This document shows positions 1 to 49,725 of a stretch of 64,000 bases of DNA, piece after piece (position 1 is the stretch's first letter; every line of letters starts with the position of its first letter). This DNA comes from a phage. The stretch lies in assembly GCA_028909515.1 (NCBI GenBank), contig GCA_028909515.1_4811.1. The stretch is one strand, 5' to 3'. The translations under genes were made by a program, and so were the position numbers. Below the pieces are notes generated by a model that saw only the letters and a program-made list of their open reading frames with translations, was not told the DNA's origin and ran no database searches.

Positions 1-1332
1 AGGAGGGTTTTGCGTTCCATAAAAATAAGGCTCAGGTCCATTTGGATTCTGAACAGGGTCGCAGACGCAAATCGAGTACCCAAACAAAAGAGCATCAGAC
101 CCTTCAGGCAATTCACGAGTTTGAGTTGATCCAGCGGCAGTCGCCTTCAACTCTATTGAGAAGCTGGTACTTACTCCAGAAGCAGCGGTTGCCGTCTGCT
201 CTACAATCCAGATTCTATACCAATCGCCGCCGATTGCTTTTATGCCACCACGGCTTGATTCCCTTCTTACTCCATCAAATTTTCCTGTAATGAAGTAGCT
301 CAAAGACGGGTCCAAGTTGAACTGTCCGGTGACAGGGTCAAACAGCTTTCCATTACTCGATGCATCACTATTCTCTGTAACAGAAACAGAAGCGACGTTT
401 TCAGAAAGCACCTTTATGTAGAAGCTATAGCAAACGTTAACGCCAGCCTGCGAAGGAAGGGCAATTGACTGTGCGCTTGGATTATTAGCCAAAGAATACA
501 CAGGCTCACCGCTTGAAGCCGTCTTGACGACCCTTACTGCGTTGGCAAAATTCTCTATTGCCTCACCTGGGTAATCGCCACACAACTGTCCATAGTAATC
601 AGGGCCGCCGTACTGTCTGGTGTCGCCGCCGACAAGGCCTGTGCCGGAACCATTCCCCCATGAGTACCAGTCTGGATGCGCCATCCGTGACACGGTGCCT
701 GATACTCCGCTGATGGTCAGCCCGGCGTTGTTGCCATGGCTTAAAAGTATCTGCTTATAATCGTGCTGAATCTCAGTTGACCCCTGCCAGTCGTACAGAA
801 GGAATGAGCCATTGGTCGATTCAGACGAAGACACCGCGCCTTGAGTGTTGTCTGTCACATATGCGTAGCGTGATGAAGAGTAATCCCAAGCTTCTCCACG
901 GTTGAAAATCCACTTAAGCATGCGGTTGATACTTTCGATGCGGCCATCACTTGTGAGCGTCAGATAACGAAGCTTAAGAAGTATGCGCGCTTCTTCGATA
1001 TTCTTTACAACCTTACCGCCAGCACCAAAGAAGTTGCCGCCGATGTTGTCAGCGCCTTCAAAGTTGTCGCGCGTCGGTCCGAACGCCCAGTTGTGTTCAT
1101 AATTGCTTAAGTCCACAAAGTCTCTTGGTATGCAAAGAATGTCGCACCAAATATAAATGCCCATTGCATCACAAGTGTCAATGTTGAAAATGTTGTTGTA
1201 CCAGTCAGTCCAAAACTGATCTTGGTATCTTTCATACCAGTCACTTTTCTTTTGCACCAAAGACGTGATGTTTGGTGCATTGTTCTGCATCCACTTAAGG
1301 TTTTGCAACAGGTTTGTGTCAAACTTTTGCAT
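1..1332 (-). CDS. Structural protein, probable tail fiber or distal baseplate component; only the N-terminal 444 codons are in the window
   Basis: ATG at 1332-1330 preceded by GAGGAA, 4 nt after the stop of the upstream gene. Frame translated by hand stays open to position 1. Gly-rich stretch GNGSGTGLVGG. Product is a guess from position after the baseplate genes. Confidence 0.5.
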   Translation of the reverse strand, partial: MQKFDTNLLQNLKWMQNNAPNITSLVQKKSDWYERYQDQFWTDWYNNIFNIDTCDAMGIYIWCDILCIPRDFVDLSNYEHNWAFGPTRDNFEGADNIGGNFFGAGGKVVKNIEEARILLKLRYLTLTSDGRIESINRMLKWIFNRGEAWDYSSSRYAYVTDNTQGAVSSSESTNGSFLLYDWQGSTEIQHDYKQILLSHGNNAGLTISGVSGTVSRMAHPDWYSWGNGSGTGLVGGDTRQYGGPDYYGQLCGDYPGEAIENFANAVRVVKTASSGEPVYSLANNPSAQSIALPSQAGVNVCYSFYIKVLSENVASVSVTENSDASSNGKLFDPVTGQFNLDPSLSYFITGKFDGVRRESSRGGIKAIGGDWYRIWIVEQTATAASGVSTSFSIELKATAAGSTQTRELPEGSDALLFGYSICVCDPVQNPNGPEPYFYGTQNPP

Positions 1333-1338
1333 AGTTCC

Positions 1339-2610
1339 TCACACAAATTTAACGTTGATAAAGCCGCGCATAGTATTCGCCTTATCCCAAGGATTGGCAA
1401 TCCACTCGCTGCCGTAATCGGATGGATAATTTGGCGCTGCCTGTCCGCTTTTCACTGCTGCAATCTTGCAATCTTTAATATACAAGCCTGGATACTCGCA
1501 AGACACTGCTGAAGCAATTTCAAAAGAAGATTGAGATTGACCTACTGTATATCCTTGCTCACCGTTAAAATTGCCATTGCCGTAATTCAAAACAGCAGCA
1601 ATAATAGATTCAGCGTCGGCGGTCGCGGTGCCTCTTGAAACAGTAATGTCGACATACAAGTCATATATTACTGCAGTGTTGAACTTAACAAAATAAGACA
1701 GTTGTGATTCTTCGTCGACAACTTCTATTCCATCAGGCGAGTTGACTGGATTGCCCTGATTGGTCGCGCCAAAGTCCCACGGCTGGCCGCCCATCTTCGC
1801 TTTGAAAATAGTCTCAGCAAAAACTTGCTTATCGAACGTTCCGCTTGCGCACACCCACACACCGTTAGGCGTTGAAAAGGTGATACCGCGTACCGTTCCA
1901 GGTAATCCCGTGTCGTTCTCCACGACCATCACCGATTCCACGCCGTCGACCGACATGGCACGGGCGCGAATGGCACCAAGCGATGCAATGCCCTGTTGGT
2001 AAAGACGCTTAACGCGAGCGGCCTTTAACGCTCCGTCTCCCATGTATTGCGTGCCTGGTACAGTCGTCGTTGCTGATGTTGAATACGTTCTTGACCATCC
2101 GATGACGTCATAGCCTTGCACCACGGTAAACTCTTCATCAGGCGCAACAGTAAATGAGCCATACTCTTTTGATGCAAGAGTCATGTTGCTTGTCTTGCCA
2201 GTCGAAGTGATTTGAACGTCTTCTAGAACATACCAGTATGTACCGTTTGAATCCGTCAGTAAACTTCCAGCAGGAATATCCAACAGCGGCGTTCCTTCTG
2301 CTGTAATTCCTTTCAGCATCGTGCTGATGTTTTTAGTTCGCTCAATCCCAAGCAATGCCGCGATGGCATCAAGGTATACGCCATACGAATAATTTGGGTT
2401 GATGAGACTTCCCAGCTCGGCGTTGTTCTTCATGACTGAAGTTCTTGCCAAAGTCTCTGTCGCGATTAAGGTGCCTTGCGGTGTCGAGGCATCAACGTCA
2501 AGCCCGACCCCTAGTGACTCAATCCATTCACTTTGAACGTCAGCCAGCAAATCGGCTGTGTCGATGGTTATTACACCAGTGCTTACTATGTAAGAATATT
2601 GTGCACTCAT
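1339..2610 (-). CDS. Baseplate wedge protein (gpJ-like)
   Basis: 423 aa ORF. Called from size and position downstream of the spike-like protein; no motif confirmed. Confidence 0.4.
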   Translation of the reverse strand: MSAQYSYIVSTGVITIDTADLLADVQSEWIESLGVGLDVDASTPQGTLIATETLARTSVMKNNAELGSLINPNYSYGVYLDAIAALLGIERTKNISTMLKGITAEGTPLLDIPAGSLLTDSNGTYWYVLEDVQITSTGKTSNMTLASKEYGSFTVAPDEEFTVVQGYDVIGWSRTYSTSATTTVPGTQYMGDGALKAARVKRLYQQGIASLGAIRARAMSVDGVESVMVVENDTGLPGTVRGITFSTPNGVWVCASGTFDKQVFAETIFKAKMGGQPWDFGATNQGNPVNSPDGIEVVDEESQLSYFVKFNTAVIYDLYVDITVSRGTATADAESIIAAVLNYGNGNFNGEQGYTVGQSQSSFEIASAVSCEYPGLYIKDCKIAAVKSGQAAPNYPSDYGSEWIANPWDKANTMRGFINVKFV

Positions 2611-3359
2611 TCTATCATATCCCCAGTTCTGTTTCCAGGTCCGTTACCTATGTGACCGTGAGTGGATACATTTGTGCCGCCGATTGTTGTGCCAGTCGGA
2701 AGCGTTGCCGTCGTTCCTTCTTTCCCTTCTATACCACCATTGAATGTCGCCTTTCCATTCACTATCAATTGTTGGTCGATAGTGGTAATTGGTGTTTTCA
2801 CGTTTACCCCAGCTGATGCGGTTATGTTTATCGAGTCATCACTTAATGCGATTCGGACAGCGCCGCTGAGTGACTGGATTACCATTGAGCCTGCATCCTC
2901 TCCGCTTATGGTGTATTTTCGGAATACATCCGGTATGAACAGTCCATCAGCGAAAGTTTTCACGCGACCATTGGTAGGCGCGGTCGGCTTCAATTCTTCA
3001 AGGAATGTCGACAACTCGCGGTCGCCAGCGAATATCCAGCCCAAATCACCTTCTTTCAAAGGAAAGTTGACTACGAAGCCGCCGCCGCCGATTGCCAATA
3101 CAGGAATTGACACCAAAGGTTGACGCTCCACTGGTTTATCATCAAGACTTACGAAATGAATAACAGGCTTTATGACTGCTAAATTCTGTTTGCGGTCATA
3201 AGATATTACTTGTGCAGGAATCATGCCGTCAGTGGTATACTTGCCACGGTCCAGCATTCCCTGCAGCGCGGCAAACATACTTGATTTGTCAGTTTGGTTG
3301 GGACTTGTAAGTTGGGTTAACTTTTCTGCCATCATAGACTCCTTATATCTGATCAACAA
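2607..3359 (-). CDS. Baseplate spike or hub protein (gpV/gp138-like)
   Basis: 250 aa ORF overlapping the next gene by 4 nt. Gly-rich core GGGGFVVNF. Assignment from position only. Confidence 0.35.
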   Translation of the reverse strand: MLIRYKESMMAEKLTQLTSPNQTDKSSMFAALQGMLDRGKYTTDGMIPAQVISYDRKQNLAVIKPVIHFVSLDDKPVERQPLVSIPVLAIGGGGFVVNFPLKEGDLGWIFAGDRELSTFLEELKPTAPTNGRVKTFADGLFIPDVFRKYTISGEDAGSMVIQSLSGAVRIALSDDSINITASAGVNVKTPITTIDQQLIVNGKATFNGGIEGKEGTTATLPTGTTIGGTNVSTHGHIGNGPGNRTGDMIE

Positions 3360-3391
3360 TTATAATCTATAAGGAGTCTATAAGCAATATT

Positions 3392-3913
3392 TTAGCGATT
3401 TGACTTTGATTCTTTAATGGCAGCTTCGTTTGAGTAGGCTTCATTAAGTGATTTTGCTATTAGTCCATCAAACATAGCGAATGCATCACGCAATGAATAA
3501 TATTCTTCCAATTCTTTTAACGAAGCAAGACCATTGTTTATTAGGCTTGCGACCATCGGCTCAAGATAATTAGGCTCTACGGTCGGGACGTCGGCCAAGA
3601 ATCTATTTGGAATCTTAGTACCTTTCCAATCACTGAGGAATCCAAAATTGTGCTTCTTCACCGCTTCCATTAGAACTTTCAATACAAGGTTTGGCGGCAA
3701 GTGATTTGGCACACTTTTCACTTCTTCACTGATGGCCTTCTCAGAGTTTAATCTGACTTTAGTTCCGTCATATTTAATAACATGGCATTCACTTAATAAT
3801 TCAAGTGGAGTTAATATGCTTATCGCATCAACCATTTCAAACGCGTCTATTGCGCTGAATTGATGTATTTCATAAGTAACTCCAAAAAGCTCAATTACTT
3901 TATTCTTTCTCAT
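3392..3913 (-). CDS. Tail/baseplate module protein
   Basis: 173 aa ORF in the co-oriented tail gene array. Confidence 0.4.
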   Translation of the reverse strand: MRKNKVIELFGVTYEIHQFSAIDAFEMVDAISILTPLELLSECHVIKYDGTKVRLNSEKAISEEVKSVPNHLPPNLVLKVLMEAVKKHNFGFLSDWKGTKIPNRFLADVPTVEPNYLEPMVASLINNGLASLKELEEYYSLRDAFAMFDGLIAKSLNEAYSNEAAIKESKSNR

Positions 3914-16278: not shown

Positions 16279-17700
16279 TTATTCCCCTTTCAACCAAGCT
16301 TCAAATGCTTCGTCAGTTGCTGCAGAATCCGCAGCGGCCTTTTGTTTTGCGACTACACGCTGTTTTTGACCGTGTTCAACGCCGCGCAGATAGTTATCCA
16401 CCACGTCAAACTCAGCACCATCAACGCACTTCAAGCCTAACTTTTTAGCGCCATATTTCGCTACGGACTTGGAATCCATAGTTGCATGATCAAAGGCACC
16501 AACAACTTTAGACAGGCGCTGGTAGAGGCTATTCTTACGAGCAGAATCAGCGTAGAAAGCAGCAACTGCTGAATCAGATGCCATTGAGTGTTCCCCTTTT
16601 GCTGGACCTGGCGACGCTTTCGCCGCTTTTGTCGGTTTGTCATCTTTTTCGACCGAAGCCCCCTTTACGTTGCTGTTTTGCAGGCCGCTAACCACATCTT
16701 CAGCTTTGTCGCAAGGTGATACATCTTCAGCCTTGACTTCAACTTCTTCTTCGTCTTTGACTTCGGCTTCAACTTCTTCTTCATCACCTACCGCGCCACC
16801 TTTCAGTTTTGCAATAAGCGCTTCGATTTGGCTGATCAATTGCGGAAGTTCGCCGCCAGCGTGAGATTCAGTTTCAACTTCAAACTTCTCTTCACCTTCT
16901 GGGGTTTCTTCTGCTTCTGCCTTGACTTCTGGATCAACCATTACTTCTTCACGATTTTCGGTTGAGTCCTTCTCTTCTGCTTTCACTTCAACTTCATCCT
17001 GATGAGCAGCTTCAGTGCTCTCTTCGTTCAGAAATTGTTCGAGCGCAGGGATCAGTGATTTCAGCTGTTCAACAGCATTATCACGCGCTTTACCTTTTAA
17101 CGGTTTTGGCATGTCTAAATCCTCGTTGGATGGTGTTACAGTCGTCAAACAAAGATGGTCAAAGCAACGACCATCCAGCACCCGTGCACCTGGTACTCGA
17201 CCAACGTCCACGAGAGCAATGTGGTTGCCGCGAAGAGTTGTCTGCACCACTTCATACGGCTGCCCGTCAAACTCTCCAGACTGTATGATGAATTCACAGT
17301 CATAGCCCAAAGACAAGTCAACCTTTCCAGAATCGATGGCCTTCTTCAGACGACGGCTAAACACTTTAAGGTCGCCGCGCATCCATGGCTTGTCATAATA
17401 AACATTGCCAGTCAGAACGCCATCAACGCCATACTCTTCGGGTGCTGTGTTATCCTCATCACCTTCAAATCCAGAAAGCATTTCGTGATTGTCGATGAAA
17501 GGGATATTTTTGAATGAATCTATCGCTTCGGGGTCTTTCACCGCTGACTCAGGGCGATAGACTTTTACGATGCGATTCGGATCACCATCAAGACCAACTT
17601 GACCAGCAGAATAATCAAAAATGCCAAATGACGAAATTGGACAACCCATAATCGTCAAGAATCCATTTTTGTCAATTTCGCGTGCCGTTTGCATTCGCAT
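16279..17700 (-). CDS. Prohead scaffold protein, possibly fused to a protease
   Basis: 473 aa. Globular N-terminal ~200 aa, then a long E/K/A-rich acidic stretch typical of scaffolds. GAGGGTGG site upstream. Confidence 0.45.
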   Translation of the reverse strand: MRMQTAREIDKNGFLTIMGCPISSFGIFDYSAGQVGLDGDPNRIVKVYRPESAVKDPEAIDSFKNIPFIDNHEMLSGFEGDEDNTAPEEYGVDGVLTGNVYYDKPWMRGDLKVFSRRLKKAIDSGKVDLSLGYDCEFIIQSGEFDGQPYEVVQTTLRGNHIALVDVGRVPGARVLDGRCFDHLCLTTVTPSNEDLDMPKPLKGKARDNAVEQLKSLIPALEQFLNEESTEAAHQDEVEVKAEEKDSTENREEVMVDPEVKAEAEETPEGEEKFEVETESHAGGELPQLISQIEALIAKLKGGAVGDEEEVEAEVKDEEEVEVKAEDVSPCDKAEDVVSGLQNSNVKGASVEKDDKPTKAAKASPGPAKGEHSMASDSAVAAFYADSARKNSLYQRLSKVVGAFDHATMDSKSVAKYGAKKLGLKCVDGAEFDVVDNYLRGVEHGQKQRVVAKQKAAADSAATDEAFEAWLKGE

Positions 17701-17788
17701 CCACCCTCAAATAAGTATTGTGTATTATATCTAATGAAAAAAACTTAGGCAAACAATAATTATGGTTTGAATATGTATAACAACCGAT

Positions 17789-18090
17789 ATAGCCGCGCCT
17801 TTATTAGTGTGATACGGATGATACGGATAAAATGAGGCGTATTTTTATCCGTATCGGTGTATAAGCCGCGCTATCACTGGTGTGCTACGGATGATACGGA
17901 TGATACGGATACTTTTCATATATAAGAGTTTATAAAAAAATAAAATTAAATTAGATATATAATTTTAAATTAATTTATTTGAATTCCTATATAGTACGGC
18001 GGCAACGCGTATCATCCGTATCATCCGTAAGATTCTTTTGAAAACAACAACTTACTTGATACGGATGATACGTCATTATACGTATAAAAC
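17789..18090. repeat. Iteron-like locus 1: 9 bp ACGGATGAT repeats in both orientations around an AT-rich core
   Basis: A ~40 bp unit ending in TACGGATGATACGGAT occurs twice as a direct repeat. A 9 bp-stem hairpin lies between the copies. An AT-rich core at 17913-17995 is followed by inverted copies GTATCATCCGTATCATCCG. Confidence 0.6.
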
Positions 18091-18116
18091 TTGCGGCAAT
18101 CCTTTGCCGATGAATT

Positions 18117-18253
18117 CAGTGAATATTAAATAGCACTCCTGCCACTAAAACGCCAATCAACATCGAGTCATAAACAGCCCATTTCCAAGAAAGCAAAGAG
18201 TTGCAATTAATATTTCGCACTTTAACATAACGTGACTGAATAATCTTTTGCAT
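18117..18253 (-). CDS. Small membrane protein (46 aa)
   Basis: Not in the ORF track. ATG preceded by AAAGAGGAAG, overlapping the stop of the fiber-repeat gene. Hydrophobic C-terminal half. Confidence 0.3.
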
Positions 18254-18263
18254 AACTTCCTCT

Positions 18264-29608: not shown

Positions 29609-29989
29609 ATGTCAAATAAAAATGATTCTATGAGCCACACATATACTAAAGGCAGCGGCACCGCTTTTGGTTCAAGTATGAAAATTGACGCTCCATCTTG
29701 CTATTCTGATGGATTGGAAGTTGGCAACCGTGACTTGACATGGGTTTTACGTCGCCAATCCGATTTAGAAGAGAAGTTGGAAAATATTGAGCGTTCTCTT
29801 GAAAGTCTGCGCGACCAGCTTTTTGGTTGTTCTGGAGATGAGTCAAAACCTGTATCATATGCAGCCAATCGCGGTTTGATTGATAATATGCTTGCTATTA
29901 CCGCTCGATCAATTGGTAAAACTGTGTCCATTGAATCATTGATCAGCCAGATTGCGGATGGCTTTGGTGATGCCCATAAGAGTGAGTAG
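29609..29989 (+). CDS. Hypothetical protein
   Basis: Internal ATG (MSNKNDS) chosen over the track start at 29543. Confidence 0.4.
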   Translation: MSNKNDSMSHTYTKGSGTAFGSSMKIDAPSCYSDGLEVGNRDLTWVLRRQSDLEEKLENIERSLESLRDQLFGCSGDESKPVSYAANRGLIDNMLAITARSIGKTVSIESLISQIADGFGDAHKSE

Positions 29990-30009
29990 TGGGTGTTGGT
30001 TATTTAACC

Positions 30010-30038
30010 GTGAATCGTGGGTCGTGAATCTTGGGTCG
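30010..30038. repeat. Tandem direct repeat GTGAATC(G/T)TGGGTCG, two copies
   Basis: Read directly at the left edge of the island. Confidence 0.6.
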
Positions 30039-30253
30039 CTTAGTGCGGCCCTTTCTTTTGCCTGCCGTGCAGGAGTGTACTGCAAATTTACTGTGGGTAC
30101 AAAATAGTACGGTACTGTCTAGGATTTTTTCTTTGAAAAGTTAGTGGACCAAATGTGTCGTATTTTGATTAGTGTACTACAAATTTCATCAAGTACCAAA
30201 ACGCACCAAAAGACCCATGCCATAAAAACCACACGAACGCAATAATCAATCGC

Positions 30254-30338
30254 CGTTACAGTTTCCAGCGTTACAATTCGAAAGCGAATGATTCGAAGCA
30301 TAATAATATGAAGCATAATGATTCGAAAGCGAATGATT
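30254..30338. repeat. Nested direct repeats in non-coding DNA
   Basis: ATTCGAAAGCGAATGATT twice, GAAGCATAAT twice between them, CGTTACA twice just upstream. The 18-mer contains a 5 bp palindrome. Confidence 0.6.
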
Positions 30339-30463
30339 GCGTGTAGGATAATATCGGTGGGGATTATTCTAGATGCATGTAATTTCGCATGCGTACTATT
30401 TTCGGACGAAGGGTCGGCATATTCCTCGTTTTAGTTCGGAACGAAGGGAAAGTTTTGCGCCTT

Positions 30464-30537
30464 TATAAAACAACGACTTACGCGACCCTCCCTAACGGTC
30501 CGATATAGGTGTCTATATAAAACAACGACTTACGCGA
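30464..30537. repeat. Perfect 22 bp direct repeat TATAAAACAACGACTTACGCGA, two copies
   Basis: Copies at 30464-30485 and 30516-30537. Confidence 0.7.
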
Positions 30538-30662
30538 TGTTCTCCATTTAACGTAATACCCGTTATGCGAACTAAGGCGCATCTCGGCGAAGATTATGCG
30601 ACGACGAAGGGAAGGATAAAGGAGTTTTCGCGGAGAAGCGCATCGGGATAGGGACGAAGAAA

Positions 30663-30681
30663 AGCCGCGACTAAGCGCGGC
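30663..30681 (-). terminator. Weak terminator-like hairpin after small acidic gene A
   Basis: GCCGCG, 6 nt loop, CGCGGC, followed on the minus strand by TTTTCTTCG. Confidence 0.3.
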
Positions 30682-30701
30682 CTATTAGTAACGGAAGGGT
30701 A

Positions 30702-30992
30702 TTATAAGGAGACGATTTTAAAATAAGTTACTTCGCCGCCAAGTTGCGGGACCGCGATATATTCGCCGCCGATTTCGGTAATCGTATAGACGAAGCCGTT
30801 GATGGTTACGCGGTAGGATACTACGTCCTCGTCGCGATACTTGTAAAGGTCGAGGAAGTTGATCGGCTCATAAATAGACTCGATAGTCGCGTCTACGTTA
30901 GAGAGATAAACGCTCTCTAAGGTTTCGCCAAATACGTTAGAGTTTTCGGAAGTCTCGACGCGAGCGGAACGGATAGCGGATAAAGTAATCAT
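30702..30992 (-). CDS. Small acidic protein, paralog A of a three-member family
   Basis: 96 aa. AGGAG site. Blocks shared with B and C, for example SVYLSNVDATIE with EVYAANVDQTIE. Confidence 0.55.
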   Translation of the reverse strand: MITLSAIRSARVETSENSNVFGETLESVYLSNVDATIESIYEPINFLDLYKYRDEDVVSYRVTINGFVYTITEIGGEYIAVPQLGGEVTYFKIVSL

Positions 30993-31016
30993 AATATTCT
31001 CCTAGTTAGTCGGGAG

Positions 31017-31037
31017 GGTAGCGACCTATTCGCTACC
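31017..31037 (-). promoter_or_regulatory. Leader hairpin in the 5' UTR of gene A
   Basis: On the transcribed strand: GGTAGCG, loop AATAGGT, CGCTACC. Lies between the -10 element and the ribosome-binding site. Confidence 0.5.
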
Positions 31038-31058
31038 TCATCCCCTCTCGATATAAAC

Positions 31059-31088
31059 ATTATAGTCTTAGTGTACGAATAAGTAAAG
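31059..31088 (-). promoter_or_regulatory. Sigma70-like promoter of gene A
   Basis: Transcribed strand reads GTGCTTTACTT...TTCGTACACT...TATAAT then GTTTATATCGAGAGG. Shared with the promoters of B and C. Confidence 0.5.
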
Positions 31089-31097
31089 CACTTTTCG

Positions 31098-31399
31098 TTA
31101 TTCTGCGATAAAATATTTATAAGCTTTATCGCCTTCTATATCGAGATACTCGACGATAATTAACGCTTCGCCGCGCGGCGTAACGGTTTCGATGAGGGTT
31201 ACGGTTTCGTCGTCGGCCCGAATGAAGCGGATGGCGCTACGTTCGGCGTACTTAATCTCGTCGAAGGAAAGGCCGACGAAGGCGACCGCGCGGACTTTAA
31301 TTCCGCTCCACTCTAGTTCCGCGTTAACGGCTTTAAGAAGAGAAGCGACGGTTAAGCGGTCTTCGTCGTAAGTAAGAAGAGAAGAAATTAAAGTAGCCA
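31098..31399 (-). CDS. Small acidic protein, paralog C
   Basis: ATG MATLISSLL with a GGGAG site, chosen over the longer track ORF (31098-31457). Confidence 0.5.
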
Positions 31400-31457
31400 T
31401 AATAAAACTCCCGATGCTAGTAGAAGGAAGGGCCATCACCCGTCTCGATATAAACAA

Positions 31458-31485
31458 GTATACGCGAGTGTACGAAGAAGTAAAG
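31458..31485 (-). promoter_or_regulatory. Sigma70-like promoter of gene C
   Basis: Transcribed strand reads CTTTACTTCTTCGTACACT...TATACT then TGTTTATATCGAGACGG. Back to back with the promoter of B. Confidence 0.45.
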
Positions 31486-31528
31486 AAAAAAAGATAAAAT
31501 AATTTATCTCATTTTTATCGAAAAAGTG

Positions 31529-31557
31529 CTTTACTTTTTTCTACACTATATTATAAT
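31529..31557 (+). promoter_or_regulatory. Sigma70-like promoter of gene B
   Basis: GTGCTTTACTTTTTTCTACACT...TATAAT then GTACTCATATCGGGACGG. Confidence 0.5.
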
Positions 31558-31580
31558 GTACTCATATCGGGACGGGATGA

Positions 31581-31601
31581 GTTAACGAATAGGTCGTTAA
31601 C
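31581..31601 (+). promoter_or_regulatory. Leader hairpin in the 5' UTR of gene B
   Basis: GTTAACG, loop AATAGGT, CGTTAAC. Same loop as the gene A hairpin; two stem positions differ and both are compensated. Confidence 0.5.
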
Positions 31602-31625
31602 GCCTCTCCCAACTAGGAGTTTAAA

Positions 31626-31910
31626 ATGGCTATTCTTAACGTTTCTTCTATTCGCAACGCTATCGTCGAGAACTACGGCGTAAAACAAATTTTATCCGAA
31701 GTCTACGCCGCGAACGTAGACCAAACTATCGAGGCGGGTGGGGTAACGGTCGCCGAGGCTTTTAAACTTTACGCGGCGCTACCGGAATCGGACCGCGAAG
31801 CCTTCGAAGTAAACGTTAACGGATACTTCTTCGAAGCGGTCGAAATCGGTAACATCTTACTCGTTATGGGCGAAGAAGAATTTGAGACCTTCTCCCTCGT
31901 CGAAGCGTAA
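31626..31910 (+). CDS. Small acidic protein, paralog B
   Basis: 94 aa. AGGAG site. All 7 Leu codons are non-CTG and both Gln codons are CAA. Confidence 0.55.
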   Translation: MAILNVSSIRNAIVENYGVKQILSEVYAANVDQTIEAGGVTVAEAFKLYAALPESDREAFEVNVNGYFFEAVEIGNILLVMGEEEFETFSLVEA

Positions 31911-31990
31911 GAGAGGATTTTTAGAGCGTCGTGCGCGGCGCTTTAATAAAATTCTTTCGCGCCTAGCGCCCTAACAAATAGGAGTTTATT

Positions 31991-32617
31991 ATGGTTAGCT
32001 TAAATCGTTTCTCGACTAGCGGCGACGTTATCGCAACTAAGACCGCCGACCTCGTTGCATTTTATAATGCAAATTCCGGTTCGAAGCCGATTAAGAAATT
32101 TGCGGACCGCCGGACCGCCGAGACTCGCGTAATCGCGTTAATCGAGTCCTTAAACGCGCTCGATGAGCCGTCCAACGAATCGCCCATTCCCGACGCGAAG
32201 CCGCGCGAGGAAGTGTCCAGCGATGTAAAAACGCATAAGGCGCGCGCGGTCGTTAAAAAGGCCGAGCCGACCCAGGAAGAACTCGACGCGATGAGCGATG
32301 AAGAGTATGAAGCCTTCGTTAAGAGCGGCTTAAACGATAGTGCGAATTGCGTAGTGCAAAATGGAACTCCTTCCCATCGCCGTTCGAATAGCGAAGGTAT
32401 TGCAAAAAGTTGGGATAATAAGGAAGTGGCGCAAAAGCGTCTTACTCGTAACGGTGTTATGGTCGAGGGTGTAGGCGAGTTCAAATCGGTCCGCGTAGCG
32501 TTCGCCGCGCTGGGCTTACCGGATAGCAAGCATATTCGCTTCCGCATGAAGCTTAAAGAAGCTGGACGCTTAAACTTCGAGTTCGGCAACAAGTCCTACA
32601 CCTTCCAGATTATCTAA
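31991..32617 (+). CDS. Hypothetical protein with island-type codon usage
   Basis: 208 aa. AGGAG site. CpG-rich codons. Contains two copies of the ATAGTGC(A/G)AAT DNA motif in different reading frames. Confidence 0.5.
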   Translation: MVSLNRFSTSGDVIATKTADLVAFYNANSGSKPIKKFADRRTAETRVIALIESLNALDEPSNESPIPDAKPREEVSSDVKTHKARAVVKKAEPTQEELDAMSDEEYEAFVKSGLNDSANCVVQNGTPSHRRSNSEGIAKSWDNKEVAQKRLTRNGVMVEGVGEFKSVRVAFAALGLPDSKHIRFRMKLKEAGRLNFEFGNKSYTFQII

Positions 32618-33545
32618 TCGAATGGCGGCCCTTCGGGGTCGCTTTTCATAGTGCAAATTGGTGGATTATGAATACTCTTATTCTCATCGCTACGTTGTCC
32701 ATCGGAAGTGGTCGCACCTTATCCCTTTATGACCATAGTGCAAATTGCGCTTACCCTACGCGCGTTGCGGCGATAGTTAATAGTGCAAATAAGATGCTAT
32801 TCGAGACTTGCTGGCGGGTCGATAACGAGAAAGGTCGGGTAGTCTTAGGTTATAGTGCAAATCTGCTGGTGGAGTCGTTCGATTGGACGGCTGAAGGTCG
32901 TAAATTGTTACGTAAAGTGACTAAAAGATGACTTATAATAATACACTTTCTAACGCGTTTATGGTTGCAACCTTCCCCGTCGTATTACCGACGGCCCTAG
33001 AAGTGGAGAAAATGTGTTCTAGGGCCGTTTTATAGTGCAAATTGGCTAGTGGCGGGAGAATTGCTCGCCTTCTTTGGCCGCCTCTCCAAAATCCTTGTAG
33101 AAATCGTCCATAGAACGGCCCATTTTACTATTGCCGTTTTCATCAATCATCGTGATGCCGTAGATGATATTCAGTTCACGAATAGCATTAAGCTTGGCTG
33201 ACGCCGCGACTTCTGGATCACGCACAAGCTTGACCAAATTGTGAATTGCACCTTTTACGCTCCACAAATCCTTGAGTGGCATCTCTTCCATACGCTTTTT
33301 GAAGCGCATTTTGTAGTATGGGTTGCGTTGCGCGCAAAGGATTCGCTGGCCAGTGTAGTTATCCGTTGCAACTTCCATTCCAAATACTAGTGCAAAAGCT
33401 GCGCGCATGTCATGGCCCTGAATAACAAGGTCAATGAACTCATCGAATAAAGCCTGATTGTGCTCTGCAAATCGCGGGTCTTCAAAGTCTTCAGGCATCG
33501 CTACATAATCTTGACTCATAGTGCAAAATCCCATAGTGCAAATTA
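32336..33545 (+). repeat. Same-orientation array of an 11 bp motif, ATAGTGCAAAT, at least 8 copies
   Basis: Copies near 32336 (variant), 32351 (variant), 32648, 32735, 32780, 32852, 33032, 33518 (variant) and 33534. Present in coding and non-coding DNA and in different frames. Confidence 0.6.
33046..33534 (-). CDS. Hypothetical early protein
   Basis: 162 aa. The start region overlaps two copies of the 11 bp motif; an alternative ATG lies at 33519. Confidence 0.45.
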   Translation of the reverse strand: MGFCTMSQDYVAMPEDFEDPRFAEHNQALFDEFIDLVIQGHDMRAAFALVFGMEVATDNYTGQRILCAQRNPYYKMRFKKRMEEMPLKDLWSVKGAIHNLVKLVRDPEVAASAKLNAIRELNIIYGITMIDENGNSKMGRSMDDFYKDFGEAAKEGEQFSRH

Positions 33546-33744
33546 ATAGTGTGAATTATACAATGGATGGACATTATATTCAAGTGCAGATTGATGTTCA
33601 TTATGGCTATAAACGTACACAAATCATAGTGCTGATAGAGTTGCGGACCGTGGTGCGTGGTGTACTGTTTGATACGTATAAAAGAAATCCATCCCTTTCG
33701 CCGCTTGCTATGCAAATCAATGACTTAGCCGCTGCTGGCTGGTT

Positions 33745-34120
33745 GAAGCGTATCATGACGTATCATCCGTATTGCCGCAAGTCTTTGTTTTTACTTATAT
33801 CTTACGGATGATACGTATAAATATAAGTTTAGTATAAGTATGAGGATGTAGAAAAAAATTAATTTAAATTAATTCAAAATGGAGTTAATTAATTTTCTGG
33901 AATTCTATATATATTATGTTTGCACCCGTATCATCCGTATCAGCGTATTTTTCCTTATAAATCAATAGCCCAATGATACGTCATGATACGTATGAATGAC
34001 TGCCTTCGCGGCAAAACAATCCCAGTGTATACCAACAATCCCAGGCGCGGCGCACCACAGGGCCACGGTACAATATCCTGTGAAGAGGTGACTCTCATTT
34101 CCTTATACGTATCATCATGG
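33745..34120. repeat. Iteron-like locus 2: GATACG-type repeats in both orientations around an AT-rich core
   Basis: GTATCATCCGTAT, ACGGATGATACG and GATACGTCATGATACG flank an AT-rich stretch at 33840-33920. Homologous to the locus at 17789-18090. Confidence 0.55.
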
Positions 34121-34483
34121 ACTACGATTACTAAAACTAAAAACATTATTAAAATTCTGAGCACCAACACCACAAGCACCAAGACCCACGGCTAACGCAC
34201 CGTTAGCCAATACTCCACGATAAAATATCCTATAAATTACAAACAATCCGCGTATATAATAGCACCATAATTATTTATTTTTGATTCAATATTTACACTA
34301 AAATAAGCCATTGTATTTTCCTCACTGTTCTATCCGTATTATTTAGTGGATTAAACTGTCATAAATACTTATAAACGTTGATTGCCACAATATGCAATAA
34401 TCTTGATAAATTATTATAATATTTTCGCTCTCTTAAATTACAGCCTTGAATCGTAAATAACCACAAAAAGCCTCACATTACAC

Positions 34484-34514
34484 AGGCAAACAAAAAGGGC
34501 CAATCGGCCCTCTT
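34484..34514 (-). terminator. Rho-independent terminator at the end of the minus-strand early operon
   Basis: On the minus strand: GGGCC, 4 nt loop, GGCCC with extended pairing, then TTTTTGTTTG, directly after the stop of the 34529-34981 gene. Confidence 0.55.
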
Positions 34515-34528
34515 AACATTAATCATAA

Positions 34529-48726: not shown

Positions 48727-48885
48727 TGTTGACGTAAATTTACGAAAAATAAAACTGAAAATCAGTTTAATTAAAGTGGCATTGCCGCCATAGTTTTTAG
48801 TTGCTACTGGCGGCGACTGAAGGCATAATTAAGTTATCCCAAACGGGGAATATAAAATAAACTAATTTATTTAAGGACTGTGAAT

Positions 48886-49725
48886 ATGGCCGAAGCAATC
48901 AAAGTATTATCTAAAGAAGAAAAACAAGCAGCCGCAGCAGAACGTCGTCGCGTGGCTGAAGAAAAACGCCTGGCTAAAAAGAAAGAAGCCGAAGAAAAAC
49001 GCCAGAAGCGTGAGCAGGAAAAACAAGCCAAGCGTGAAGAAGCTGCGCTGAAACGCAAGCAGGCTGCTGATGAGAAGGCTCAGAAGCGTGCTGAAGAAGC
49101 AGCTAAGAAAGCTAAAGAGCGTGCAGAAAAGGCTGCTGCTAAGAAAGCAGAGCGTGAAGCCGCTAAAGCAGCAAAAGAAATCGAAAAGGCAAAGGCTAAA
49201 GAAGAAGCCAAGCGCCTGAAAGCTGAGCAGGCTGCGGCCAAGAAAGCAGAGCGTGATCAAGCCCGTGCTGCAGCGAAGGCCGAAAAAGAGAAGGCCAAAG
49301 AAGAAGCTAAAGCGAAACGCAAGGCAGAGCGTGAAGCTGCTAAGATTGCGGCGAAAGAAGCTGCAGAACAGCAGAAAGAACAGCGTAAGAAAGAAGCTGA
49401 AGAACGTCGCAAAGCCATCGCAGAACGTAAGGCTGCTAAAAAGGCAAACGGTCAGCGTCGTGCAAAAGCCACTCACTTCATCTACACTGGCAATGGCCTG
49501 AGCCAGCCGCAAGAGCATTCCACCCGTGGACGCGTTCTGGCGGCGATCAAAGAAGGCGAAGTTGGCGTGGCGCAGTCTATCGATGAGCTGGGCGAAAAAG
49601 TTAAAGATCAACTGTTTGGCGCTTCCGTTCGCTCCTACCTGAGCAAGCTGGAAGAGATGGGCCACATCGAGTTTGTCGATGTTGAATCCAACGGCGATGC
49701 CGAAGACGGTGATCAAGCGGAATAA
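48886..49725 (+). CDS. Charged Glu/Lys/Ala/Arg-rich protein with a globular C-terminal domain
   Basis: ATG at 48886 with an AAGGA site (track begins at a GTG, 48880). About 190 aa of KAAK/EEKR low-complexity sequence, then an ~80 aa non-repetitive tail. Confidence 0.55.
   Translation: MAEAIKVLSKEEKQAAAAERRRVAEEKRLAKKKEAEEKRQKREQEKQAKREEAALKRKQAADEKAQKRAEEAAKKAKERAEKAAAKKAEREAAKAAKEIEKAKAKEEAKRLKAEQAAAKKAERDQARAAAKAEKEKAKEEAKAKRKAEREAAKIAAKEAAEQQKEQRKKEAEERRKAIAERKAAKKANGQRRAKATHFIYTGNGLSQPQEHSTRGRVLAAIKEGEVGVAQSIDELGEKVKDQLFGASVRSYLSKLEEMGHIEFVDVESNGDAEDGDQAE

What the first reader, a model, noticed from the sequence alone, without database searches (positions are those of the whole stretch)
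29990..30701. About 700 bp with no convincing ORF but dense direct repeats
The stretch contains a tandem GTGAATC(G/T)TGGGTCG pair, nested repeats of an 18-mer and a 10-mer (30254-30338), a perfect 22 bp direct repeat 52 bp apart (30464-30537) and recurring ACGAAGGG tracts. Such long non-coding repeat-rich stretches are unusual in a compact phage genome and are candidates for small RNAs, protein-binding arrays or an origin.
Basis: seen in the sequence. Interest (0 to 1): 0.6.

Follow-up and report, generated by a model that had tools for sequence, protein, structure and literature searches.

The report
Conserved non-coding DNA at terminal-repeat boundary
This gene-free, repeat-rich 700 bp is real and strongly conserved, and it straddles the edge of the phage's 3.7-kb direct terminal repeat, so it most likely holds DNA signals that define one physical end of the packaged genome rather than a small RNA or a hidden gene.

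Summary
The window is a Wifcevirus, a ~68-kb E. coli myophage. Four relatives whose ends were placed from sequencing reads or from duplicated record ends (Mansfield, Ro157lw, WFH, SP13) put one boundary of their ~3.6-kb direct terminal repeat (DTR) at the position homologous to window 30208|30209, inside the finding. Convergent terminators flank the stretch. It has no indels over 30100-30700 in 15 aligned relatives. Its diversity (0.043) is 2-5 times lower than at third codon positions of neighbouring genes. A ~185-bp core (30159-30342) is detectably homologous to the equivalent DTR boundary of Pantoea phage Kyle, a different genus, and the two independently placed termini fall on the same alignment column. 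That core is a box just outside the repeat, the cut position, and a 15-bp-period array of dyad-symmetric CGAAT-G-ATTCG sites inside it. Best reading: a cis-acting end-formation and packaging region with protein-binding arrays (inferred, not shown). The small-RNA, gene and DnaA-box (T5-type) readings found no support. An origin is not excluded. This is a new member of a known kind and of moderate interest.

The parts
29990..30058 (+). 3' end of the rightward (tail-fibre side) operon. It holds a variable 14-bp tandem repeat (30009-30038) and an intrinsic terminator hairpin GGGTCGC-TTAGT-GCGGCCC (30033-51) followed by TTTCTTTT.
   Evidence: Terminator scan; TRF. Copy number varies among 16 relatives. 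Diversity pi is 0.092, the least conserved part apart from 30342-30391.
30074..30089 (.). First copy of the 16-nt direct repeat AGTGTACTGCAAATTT, on the unique-sequence side ~120 bp outside the DTR.
   Evidence: Repeat family D6. No other copy in the window at up to 3 mismatches apart from 30171.
30162..30208 (.). Terminus-adjacent conserved box just outside the DTR. It includes the second copy of the 16-mer (30171-30186). In genome orientation it reads TGGTGCGTTTTGGTACTTGATGAAATTTGTAGTACACTAATCAAAAT.
   Evidence: The best local alignment with Pantoea phage Kyle falls at +5..+48 outside the boundary in both phages: score 35 against a null of 18.9 +/- 2.2, maximum 26 of 500. It is part of the nhmmer hit at E=9.8e-9. 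pi is 0.039.
30208..30209 (.). Inferred boundary of the direct terminal repeat, which is one physical genome end. The DTR side starts AAAGACCCATGCC...
   Evidence: The record ends of WFH, SP13 and Ro157lw and the PhageTerm DTR annotated in Mansfield all map here. PhageTerm use is stated in PMC6753283 and PMC6454146. Kyle's boundary falls on the same alignment column. WFC alone ends 81 bp further out, at 30128.
30209..33880 (.). The direct terminal repeat itself (3672 bp in this window, assembled as a single copy). The finding covers its first 493 bp.
   Evidence: The other boundary, 33880|33881, maps from the record starts of WFC, SP13, Ro157lw and Mansfield. The window holds no second copy.
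30254..30341 (.). 15-bp-period array of 5-6 units. The core units are the 11-bp dyad CGAAT-G-ATTCG plus an AAAG spacer. It lies 45-130 bp inside the DTR and is a candidate protein-binding array.
   Evidence: TRF period 15. 4 of the 5 CKAATSATT matches in 64 kb lie in 30285-30338. In Kyle all 5 matches in 8 kb lie within 140 bp of its boundary, against 0.28 expected. The array is colinear in the nhmmer alignment. Bas100 lacks exactly 45 bp, three units.
30392..30448 (.). Pair of 22-nt imperfect direct repeats, 35 bp apart, each ending in CGAAGGG.
   Evidence: Repeat families D5/D2. pi is 0.027. In most relatives the first copy reads GCGAAGGG.
30464..30537 (.). Perfect 22-bp direct repeat TATAAAACAACGACTTACGCGA (30464-30485 and 30516-30537), 52 bp start to start. 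Copy 1 is also one arm of an imperfect inverted repeat with 30410-30433.
   Evidence: Copy 1 has pi 0.006 and copy 2 has pi 0.032. The window has no further copy at up to 4 mismatches, so it is not a general promoter motif.
30603..30664 (.). Two GACGAAGGGAAG-like tracts (30603-30614 and 30653-30664), 50 bp apart.
   Evidence: Repeat family D2. pi is 0.05.
30662..30683 (-). Intrinsic terminator of the leftward DTR genes (30702-30992 and 31098-31457). It resembles the 30033-51 terminator in inverted orientation.
   Evidence: Terminator scan; inverted pair I2. Invariant in all relatives, pi 0.0. Annotated as a terminator in WFC and Mansfield.
33046..33534 (-). Small terminase (TerS) homologue encoded inside the DTR, ~350 bp from the other terminus. 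It is a candidate binder of terminus-associated repeats.
   Evidence: phmmer against PDB 7UXE (phage E217 small terminase) gives E=6e-34. Kyle has the same layout, with TerS at 357-839 of a 3603-bp DTR.

Best explanation
The stretch is the cis-acting DNA region around one boundary of the phage's ~3.7-kb direct terminal repeat. This is the boundary far from the small-terminase gene.

In replicating concatemers the packaging nuclease has to cut at 30208|30209 to make one of the two ends of the virion DNA. The 493 bp to the right are therefore the last, gene-free 0.5 kb of the packaged chromosome at one end, and an internal copy at the other end.

A ~185-bp core (30159-30342) carries the signals:
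- a conserved box just outside the repeat;
- the cut position;
- 45-130 bp inside the repeat, a 15-bp-period array of dyad-symmetric CGAAT-G-ATTCG sites.

The array most likely binds an oligomeric phage protein (small terminase or another DTR-encoded factor) that positions the cut, in the manner of cosN plus cosB. The remaining Wifcevirus-specific repeats (the CGAAGGG pairs and the 22-mers 52 bp apart) are probably further protein-binding sites serving end formation, repeat duplication or end protection. Convergent terminators on both sides keep transcription out.

Shown: the position of the boundary in relatives, purifying selection, absence of coding or RNA signal, and cross-genus homology in register with the terminus. 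Inferred: that the boundary is the same in this phage, that proteins bind the repeats, and which process they serve.
For: 1. Boundary. The duplicated ends of the WFH, SP13 and Ro157lw records and Mansfield's PhageTerm-annotated DTR all map to window 30208|30209. The other boundary maps to 33880. PhageTerm DTRs of 3673 bp and 3533 bp are reported in PMC6753283 and PMC6454146, and '~3.7 kb' in PMC6563267.

2. Constraint. Window 30100-30700 has no indels in the 15-relative alignment. pi is 0.043, against 0.10-0.20 at third codon positions of eight neighbouring genes. The region is 94-97.5% identical across nearly all Wifcevirus records, against 89-94% when the flanks are included.

3. Cross-genus homology. 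A profile of the Wifcevirus region hits the equivalent DTR boundary of Pantoea phage Kyle (TerS 43% identical) at E=9.8e-9. The hit is colinear over window 30159-30342, and the two termini fall on the same column.

4. Motif clustering. CKAATSATT is clustered next to the boundary in both genera. The box and the array are unique in the 64 kb.

5. Insulation. Convergent terminators flank the region.

6. Alternatives tested and not supported: no coding signal, no Rfam match, no covariation.

7. Precedent. T5 has a highly conserved untranslated repeat region lying mostly in its long terminal repeat and overrunning into unique DNA (bioRxiv 10.1101/866236).
Against: - The termini of this particular phage were not measured. 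The boundary is transferred by homology.
- The WFC record ends 81 bp further out, at window 30128.
- The two DTR boundaries share no sequence beyond chance, so a single recognition motif for both cuts is not evident.
- The TerS of the relative E217 showed no appreciable DNA binding in vitro (PMC9611059).
- Bas100 lacks three of the array units, so the full array is dispensable.
- Only 30159-30342 is shared with Kyle. The 22-mers and CGAAGGG repeats are not, so their link to end formation is weaker.
- How Kyle's ends were determined is not known to me.
- No binding or cutting experiment exists.
Confidence: 0.55

Rival explanations
1. T5-like entry control. The repeat region at the inner end of the leading terminal repeat acts as an injection-stop or entry-pausing signal, so that the genes of the 3.7-kb repeat are expressed before the rest of the genome enters.
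For: The position and anatomy parallel T5 Repeat Region 3: untranslated, repeat-dense, more conserved than the repeat's ORFs, mostly inside the long terminal repeat and overrunning into unique DNA (bioRxiv 10.1101/866236). The DTR carries small genes of unknown function.
Against: There are no DnaA boxes even at one mismatch and no IHF consensus in 29990-30701. DnaA-box pairs are the conserved feature of the T5 signal in that paper. There is no sequence similarity to any phage outside Wifcevirus and Kyle. No homologues of T5 pre-early proteins were detected with Pfam or PHROGs. Two-step transfer has never been reported for this group. It is not known which end enters first.
Confidence: 0.1
2. 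Replication origin. The 15-bp array acts as iterons for a phage initiator, and the adjacent A+T-rich units (30296-30322) are the unwinding element.
For: The array is tandem and dyad-symmetric with an A+T-rich middle. The region is strongly conserved and insulated from transcription. Copy number varies, as in iteron arrays.
Against: There are no DnaA boxes. No recognisable initiator gene lies next to it. The conserved core is in register with the genome terminus in two genera, which an origin does not require. GC skew follows gene orientation and gives no origin signal here. Another repeat module with an A+T-rich core (17.7-18.3 kb and 33.7-34.1 kb) looks at least as origin-like.
Confidence: 0.12
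3. The stretch encodes one or more small RNAs or micro-proteins expressed between the two terminators.
For: Some annotators small ORFs here (Mansfield, kaset, SP13). One 31-aa ORF (30373-30468) is intact in all 16 relatives. The minus strand of 30390-30509 folds better than shuffles, z = -2.8.
Against: There is no third-position bias in any ORF, and eight of nine are broken in some relatives. There is no Rfam match even at E<=10 beyond noise. Only weak promoter-like sites (9 of 12 matches) were found and no internal promoter-terminator unit. 0 of 36 predicted pairs show a compensatory change and the covariation term is +0.22. The window-specific hairpin at 30373-30394 is not kept in relatives.
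Confidence: 0.08
4. Operator array for a phage transcription regulator. The dyad sites and other repeats bind a repressor or activator that times expression of the flanking operons, unrelated to genome ends.
For: The 11-bp dyad symmetry is typical of dimeric helix-turn-helix regulators. Six relatives carry an extra 69-aa gene next to the region that is annotated 'transcriptional regulator'.
Against: Both flanking operons end here rather than start here, so there is no promoter to regulate. The 69-aa gene is absent from this window and from most relatives, which nevertheless keep the array. The register with the terminus in Kyle is unexplained by this reading.
Confidence: 0.08
5. There is no specific function. 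The stretch is a spacer between convergent terminators that has accumulated slippage repeats.
For: The 14-bp tandem repeat and the 45-bp array deletion in Bas100 show that slippage and recombination do occur here.
Against: Diversity is 2-5 times lower than at synonymous-like sites of neighbouring genes, with no indels over 600 bp. The core is conserved in another genus.
Confidence: 0.04

Closest known systems
Phage T5 'Repeat Region 3' / injection stop signal at the inner end of the 10-kb left terminal repeat (Davison, bioRxiv 10.1101/866236)
   Same: Both are long direct terminal repeats. Both have an untranslated region dense in direct and inverted repeats that lies mostly inside the repeat and overruns into unique DNA: 270 bp in T5, and ~150-220 bp here. 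In both, the region is more conserved among relatives than the repeat's own ORFs.
   Different: There is no sequence similarity and there are no DnaA boxes. The region is shorter (0.6-0.7 kb against 1.2 kb). The virus is unrelated (myovirus of Lindbergviridae against the siphovirus T5). There is no evidence of two-step DNA transfer or of A1/A2-like proteins.
Lambda-type cos site (cosN nicking site plus cosB array of small-terminase binding sites), and SPP1/SF6 pac with repeated TerS boxes (from established knowledge)
   Same: A precisely positioned end lies next to an array of short repeated sites within ~50-150 bp. A small-terminase gene lies in the same genomic neighbourhood.
   Different: The ends here are blunt-type direct repeats of 3.7 kb, not cohesive ends or headful cuts. 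There is no IHF consensus. The TerS gene is 2.8 kb away, next to the other boundary. No binding data exist.
T7 concatemer junction, with short repeat arrays (SRL/SRR) flanking the 160-bp terminal repeat and a pac signal beside it (from established knowledge: Dunn & Studier 1983; Chung & Hinkle 1990)
   Same: Non-coding arrays of short repeats sit directly at the terminal-repeat boundary. A recognition sequence lies in unique DNA beside the repeat.
   Different: The repeat is 23 times longer. There is no phage RNA polymerase promoter or origin at the junction. The terminase is unrelated and the repeat units are different.
Pantoea phage Kyle (Kylevirus) DTR boundary at record position 3603
   Same: It is a true homologue. 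The box, the terminus position and the CKAAT-S-ATT dyad array are colinear (E=9.8e-9). The DTR gene layout is the same, with TerS ~350 bp from the other end.
   Different: Kyle's array reaches to within ~10 bp of the terminus and mixes both orientations of the motif. The window's 22-mers and CGAAGGG repeats have no detectable counterpart.
Twort-like staphylococcal phages, with 12-bp inverted repeats marking both borders of the long terminal repeat (from memory: Lobocka et al. 2012)
   Same: Short sequence marks at long-terminal-repeat borders are proposed as terminase signals.
   Different: Here the two borders share nothing beyond chance: best local score 8.5 against a null of 9.7 +/- 1.1.

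Membership tests
Boundary of a direct terminal repeat (physical genome end of a DTR-packaging phage) | The sequence on one side of the point is present at both ends of the virion DNA of close relatives. | tested here: met
   The WFC, WFH, SP13 and Ro157lw records carry the repeat at both ends. WFH, SP13 and Ro157lw end at the homologue of window 30209.
Boundary of a direct terminal repeat (physical genome end of a DTR-packaging phage) | The boundary was placed from sequencing reads (read-start peaks, doubled coverage). | not testable with these tools
   No reads are available for this window. This was done by others with PhageTerm for Mansfield (3673 bp; PMC6753283) and Ro157lw (3533 bp; PMC6454146). 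Both map to 30208|30209.
Boundary of a direct terminal repeat (physical genome end of a DTR-packaging phage) | The boundary position is conserved among relatives. | tested here: met
   Four Wifcevirus records plus Pantoea phage Kyle share the same alignment column. WFC is the one exception, at +81 bp.
T5-type injection stop signal (Repeat Region 3) | An untranslated, repeat-dense region at the inner end of a long terminal repeat that overruns into unique DNA and is more conserved than the repeat's ORFs. | tested here: met
   compared with bioRxiv 10.1101/866236.
T5-type injection stop signal (Repeat Region 3) | Paired DnaA boxes (TTWTNCACA and one-mismatch variants) within inverted repeats. 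| tested here: not met
   None of the 98 matches at up to 1 mismatch in the 64 kb lies in 29990-30701.
T5-type injection stop signal (Repeat Region 3) | Two-step DNA transfer dependent on pre-early proteins encoded in the repeat. | not testable with these tools
   The DTR proteins have no Pfam hit, and their PHROG families have unknown function. An infection experiment is needed.
cos/pac-type terminase recognition site | A defined cleavage position with adjacent repeated binding sites for the small terminase. | tested here: inconclusive
   The defined end and the adjacent dyad array are present and conserved across genera. Binding by TerS is unknown, and E217 TerS bound DNA poorly in vitro (PMC9611059).
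cos/pac-type terminase recognition site | A host-factor (IHF) site between the cut and the binding sites, as in lambda cosB. | tested here: not met
   There is no WATCAANNNNTTR in the region.
Twort-like long-terminal-repeat border marks | The same short sequence, direct or inverted, at both borders of the repeat. | tested here: not met
   +/-150 bp around 30208|30209 and 33880|33881 share nothing above the shuffled null.
Iteron-type replication origin | Three or more tandem initiator-binding repeats next to an A+T-rich unwinding element. | tested here: inconclusive
   There are five to six 15-bp units with an A+T-rich middle, but the units are dyad sites and the array is short.
Iteron-type replication origin | DnaA boxes and/or an adjacent initiator gene. 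| tested here: not met
   There are no DnaA boxes, and the neighbouring proteins have no replication-related family match.
Small non-coding RNA gene | Its own promoter and terminator, a conserved structure with compensatory changes, or a known family match. | tested here: not met
   0 of 36 pairs compensatory and no Rfam hit.
Protein-coding gene | An ORF kept open in relatives, with substitutions concentrated at third codon positions. | tested here: not met
   no third-position bias, and eight of nine ORFs are broken in 2-16 relatives.

The most novel reading that the evidence does not exclude
The 185-bp core (box, cut position, dyad array) is a dedicated signal that defines the end of the terminal repeat and is shared across genera. 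A sequence-specific protein array would set where the second terminase cut falls and so fix the length of a multi-kilobase direct terminal repeat. It would be the first defined cis signal for the formation of long terminal repeats, a process whose mechanism is still described as unknown (Casjens & Gilcrease 2009, as quoted in PMC6454146). The Wifcevirus-specific distal repeats might in addition act as a T5-like entry checkpoint in a myovirus reported to have an exceptionally short infection cycle (PMC11990801).
Probability: 0.25. Interest if true: 0.7.

Novelty: new member of a known kind. Interest (0 to 1): 0.45.

Why it matters
Long direct terminal repeats are common in phages such as T5, SPO1, the Twort-like phages and this group. 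How the two precise cuts are specified, and how the repeat is duplicated, is still unclear. Here the boundary sits in a compact, strongly constrained module that is conserved across two genera and unique in the genome. This gives concrete sites to mutate in a group of E. coli phages that can already be rebuilt from synthetic fragments (PMC11074155). It also has practical value. Annotators should not call genes here. Genome records of this genus should be opened at 33880 and the repeat closed at 30209. Engineered or therapeutic derivatives should leave this stretch intact.

Tried and rejected
- **Rfam.** At gathering thresholds on the whole window, and at E<=10 on the region, only noise was found.
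- **tRNA or tmRNA.** None.
- **RNA fold scan.** Both strands were scanned. Only one 120-nt window reached z<-2.5, and it showed no covariation.
- **Nine small ORFs.** Tested for conservation and codon-position bias, and rejected.
- **DnaA boxes, IHF and Chi.** Absent from the region.
- **Host or plasmid origin.** No match in 5,426 E. coli genomes or in PLSDB plasmids.
- **A shared motif at the two DTR boundaries.** None.
- **The 22-mer as a general phage promoter.** No other copy at up to 4 mismatches.
- **The GTGAATCGTGGGTCG unit elsewhere** (39254 and 59382). These sit in ordinary contexts and are chance matches.
- **More distant homologues.**
  - A blastn 'distant' search found only Wifcevirus.
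  - The IMG/VR scan for the box found only Wifcevirus and Kyle plus 8 chance hits.
  - The metagenome scan gave 30 loci, of which only 4 (all Wifcevirus) match the profile.
  - Salmonella phage PCSE1 has no homologous module.
- **Serratia phages MyoSmar and MTx.** I first took their non-coding region to be the same boundary. Protein comparison showed it is the TerS-proximal one. Their TerS-distal boundary is also non-coding (~345-370 bp) but has no detectable similarity to the window.
- **The two flanking terminators as ends of a mobile element.** Their resemblance to each other in inverted orientation was considered and dropped. No other copies exist and there are no target duplications.
Full report
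**What the window is.** The 2.1 kb around the finding matches 29 phage records at 89-94% identity. All are Wifcevirus: E. coli and Shigella myophages of ~68 kb, including WFC, WFH, ECML-117, FEC19, Mansfield and Bas98-101. The group is now placed in or near Lindbergviridae, with the Pseudomonas PB1-like phages as distant relatives (PMC11990801).

**The observation.**
- The tandem 14-mer is at 30009-30038.
- A 15-bp-period array at 30254-30341 contains the exact 18-mer ATTCGAAAGCGAATGATT twice.
- The perfect 22-mer is at 30464 and 30516.
- ACGAAGGG occurs three times in the stretch and only once more in the 64 kb.

Repeated 9-mers cover 132 bases, against 16 +/- 16 in shuffles. The stretch ranks in the top ~3% of all 712-bp windows. 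The 22-mer is one of only two loci in the whole window with exact direct repeats of 20 nt or more.

The stretch lies between convergent genes. A rightward gene ends at 29989 and a leftward gene occupies 30702-30992. Each has an intrinsic terminator, at 30033-30051 (+) and at 30683-30662 (-). About 610 bp therefore sit between two terminators.

**No gene and no recognisable RNA.** Nine ORFs of 31-65 aa were checked against 16 relatives. None has an excess of third-position changes, and eight are broken in 2-16 relatives. Rfam gives nothing at gathering score and only noise at E<=10, and there is no tRNA. A fold scan of both strands gives one 120-nt window below z = -2.5, on the minus strand of 30390-30509. 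On 14 distinct sequences, 0 of its 36 predicted pairs show a compensatory change, and the covariation term is unfavourable. The hairpin at 30373-30394 is specific to this window.

**The key context: a terminal-repeat boundary.** Mansfield's record annotates a PhageTerm-predicted direct terminal repeat at 1-3673 (PMC6753283). The WFC, WFH, SP13 and Ro157lw records carry the repeat at both ends. Ro157lw's 3533-bp repeat is also a PhageTerm result (PMC6454146).

I mapped the last bases of these records onto the window. WFH, SP13, Ro157lw and Mansfield all place the boundary at exactly the same homologous position, window 30208|30209. On the repeat side the sequence starts AAAGACCCATGCC. WFC alone ends 81 bp further out, at 30128. 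The other boundary maps to 33880|33881 in four records. In this window, where the repeat was assembled once, the repeat is therefore 30209-33880. The finding consists of 219 bp of unique DNA plus the first 493 bp of the repeat. Those 493 bp are the gene-free tip of the virion chromosome at one end.

**Constraint.** In the alignments with relatives (16 for the region itself, 15 for the wider locus), 30100-30700 has no indels. Diversity over 30059-30661 is 0.043. This compares with 0.10-0.20 at third codon positions, and 0.004-0.11 at first and second positions, of eight neighbouring genes. The non-coding core alone is 94-97.5% identical across nearly all records, which is higher than with the flanking genes included.

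Three variable features stand out.
- The 14-bp tandem repeat is a slippage VNTR: one copy in most relatives, two here, more in Mansfield.
- Bas100 lacks exactly 45 bp, three units of the 15-bp array, by recombination between the two 18-mers.
- Six relatives carry an extra 69-aa gene inserted at ~30717, beyond the terminator and so outside the core.

**Cross-genus evidence.** The 162-aa protein at 33046-33534 matches the solved small terminase of phage E217 (7UXE, E=6e-34). Its homologue in Pantoea phage Kyle (43% identity) sits in the same place, ~350 bp from the start of a record that also carries its repeat at both ends. That repeat is 3603 bp.

At Kyle's TerS-distal boundary there is again a non-coding stretch between convergent genes, with an array of CGAATGATT and CTAATCATT motifs just inside the repeat. 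A profile built from the 17 Wifcevirus sequences hits Kyle 3654-3490 at E=9.8e-9. The hit covers window 30159-30342 colinearly, and in that alignment the window boundary (CACCA|AAAGA) and Kyle's boundary (GGTC|AAGGG) fall on the same column. An independent local alignment anchored on the two boundaries gives its best hit at +5..+48 outside the repeat in both phages: score 35 against a null of 18.9 +/- 2.2 and a maximum of 26.

The motif CKAATSATT is clustered next to the boundary. 4 of its 5 matches in the window lie in 30285-30338, and all 5 matches in 8 kb of Kyle lie within 140 bp of its boundary, where 0.28 are expected. The array units are 11-bp dyads, CGAAT-G-ATTCG here and CTAAT-C-ATTAG in Kyle, separated by AAAG. 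This is the form expected of sites for a dimeric or ring-shaped DNA-binding protein, which is an inference.

Scans of IMG/VR and of metagenome contigs found no further genera. The Serratia relatives MyoSmar and MTx have PhageTerm repeats of 3559 and 3566 bp (PMC6753285). Both boundaries of their repeats also lie in non-coding DNA of ~345-390 bp, but with no detectable similarity to the window.

**How it most likely works.** The two precisely placed ends require sequence-directed cutting of concatemers. That is established for T7 and lambda and is an inference here. The only part of this stretch conserved beyond the genus is in register with the cut, and it is unique in the genome. I therefore read 30159-30342 as the recognition and cleavage module for this end, with the dyad array as the protein-loading part. 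I read the Wifcevirus-specific repeats (the CGAAGGG pairs and the 22-mers 52 bp apart) as accessory binding sites whose role is open: end protection, repeat duplication or entry control. The convergent terminators would shield the module from transcription.

Several points count against this reading, or at least limit it.
- WFC's discordant end.
- The lack of any motif shared with the other boundary.
- The poor DNA binding of E217 TerS in vitro (PMC9611059).
- The dispensability of three array units in Bas100.
- The absence of any experiment.

**Comparison with known systems.** The nearest functional analogue is T5's Repeat Region 3, the proposed injection stop signal. It is untranslated, packed with repeats, highly conserved, mostly inside the long terminal repeat, and overruns 270 bp into unique DNA (bioRxiv 10.1101/866236). 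The defining DnaA-box pairs are absent here and there is no homology, so this is not a member of that family. It resembles lambda cos (cut site plus binding-site array) and the T7 concatemer junction (short repeat arrays at the repeat border) in layout only. Unlike the Twort-like phages, the two borders do not share a mark. The terminal repeat of Wifcevirus is already published (PMC6563267, PMC6753283, PMC6454146). None of the ten papers in the library that mention the genus appears, from the titles, abstracts and passages I checked, to describe this non-coding module.

**Verdict.** The feature is best described as the conserved cis-acting region at one boundary of the direct terminal repeat. 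It is a new member of a known kind, of moderate interest. Its value is that it points to specific, testable sites for the still unexplained formation of long terminal repeats.

Noticed in passing
window 33535-34528 (terminus at 33880|33881): The other DTR boundary also lies in ~1 kb of non-coding, repeat-dense DNA. The terminus sits in an A+T-rich core flanked by inverted arrays of GGATGATACG / CGTATCATCC, including a perfect 18-nt inverted pair at 33749-33766 and 33973-33990. The part outside the repeat (33900-34500) is highly variable among relatives (pi 0.24-0.40, ~45% gaps). It has no significant similarity to the same boundary in Kyle.
   Followed up: partly
window 17700-18263: A second ~560-bp non-coding module has six exact GGATGATACG copies in inverted arrays around an A+T-rich core. 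It aligns with the 33730-34010 terminus region. 10 of the 15 matches at up to 1 mismatch in the window lie in these two loci, against 3.3 expected in the whole window. The motif at the TerS-proximal end is therefore not specific to the terminus. It may mark origins or a regulator's sites.
   Followed up: partly
window 33046-33534 (-): The small-terminase homologue (PDB 7UXE, E=6e-34) is encoded inside the terminal repeat, ~350 bp from a genome end and as a lone gene. Kyle, MyoSmar and MTx have the same layout. Pseudomonas relatives with a homologous TerS are reported to package by headful without a terminal repeat (PMC12390725), so the packaging mode seems to have changed within this lineage.
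   Followed up: partly
relatives, at the homologue of window ~30717 (for example L011 4289-4498): ECML-117, vB_Eco4M-7, SP13, Ro157lw, FEC19 and F13 carry an extra 69-aa gene on the minus strand, annotated 'transcriptional regulator' in some records. It lies between the 96-aa gene and the terminator and is absent from this window.
   Followed up: no
L024 (Bas100), homologue of window 30276-30320: Bas100 lacks exactly 45 bp, three 15-bp units, of the dyad array. This is consistent with recombination between the two 18-mer repeats.
   Followed up: yes
L003 end (WFC record), homologue of window 30128: The WFC record's terminal repeat extends 81 bp further than in WFH, SP13, Ro157lw and Mansfield. 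WFC and Bas99 also differ at window 30221 (C to T), close to the consensus end. Whether this is a real shift or an annotation difference is unknown.
   Followed up: no
window 48880-49725 (+): This is the most repeat-dense place in the window, but it is coding: a 281-aa ORF rich in Lys, Ala and Glu with ~99-bp periodic repeats and a strong AT skew.
   Followed up: partly
window 30037-30057 and 30657-30677: The two terminators that bracket the region resemble each other in inverted orientation: 21 nt, 76% complementary, with the same CTTAGT loop. No further copies occur in the window.
   Followed up: partly
whole window: The Chi sequence GCTGGTGG occurs 4 times against 1.15 expected (3 of 100 shuffles reach 4). 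One copy is inside the terminal repeat (32865) and none is in the finding.
   Followed up: no
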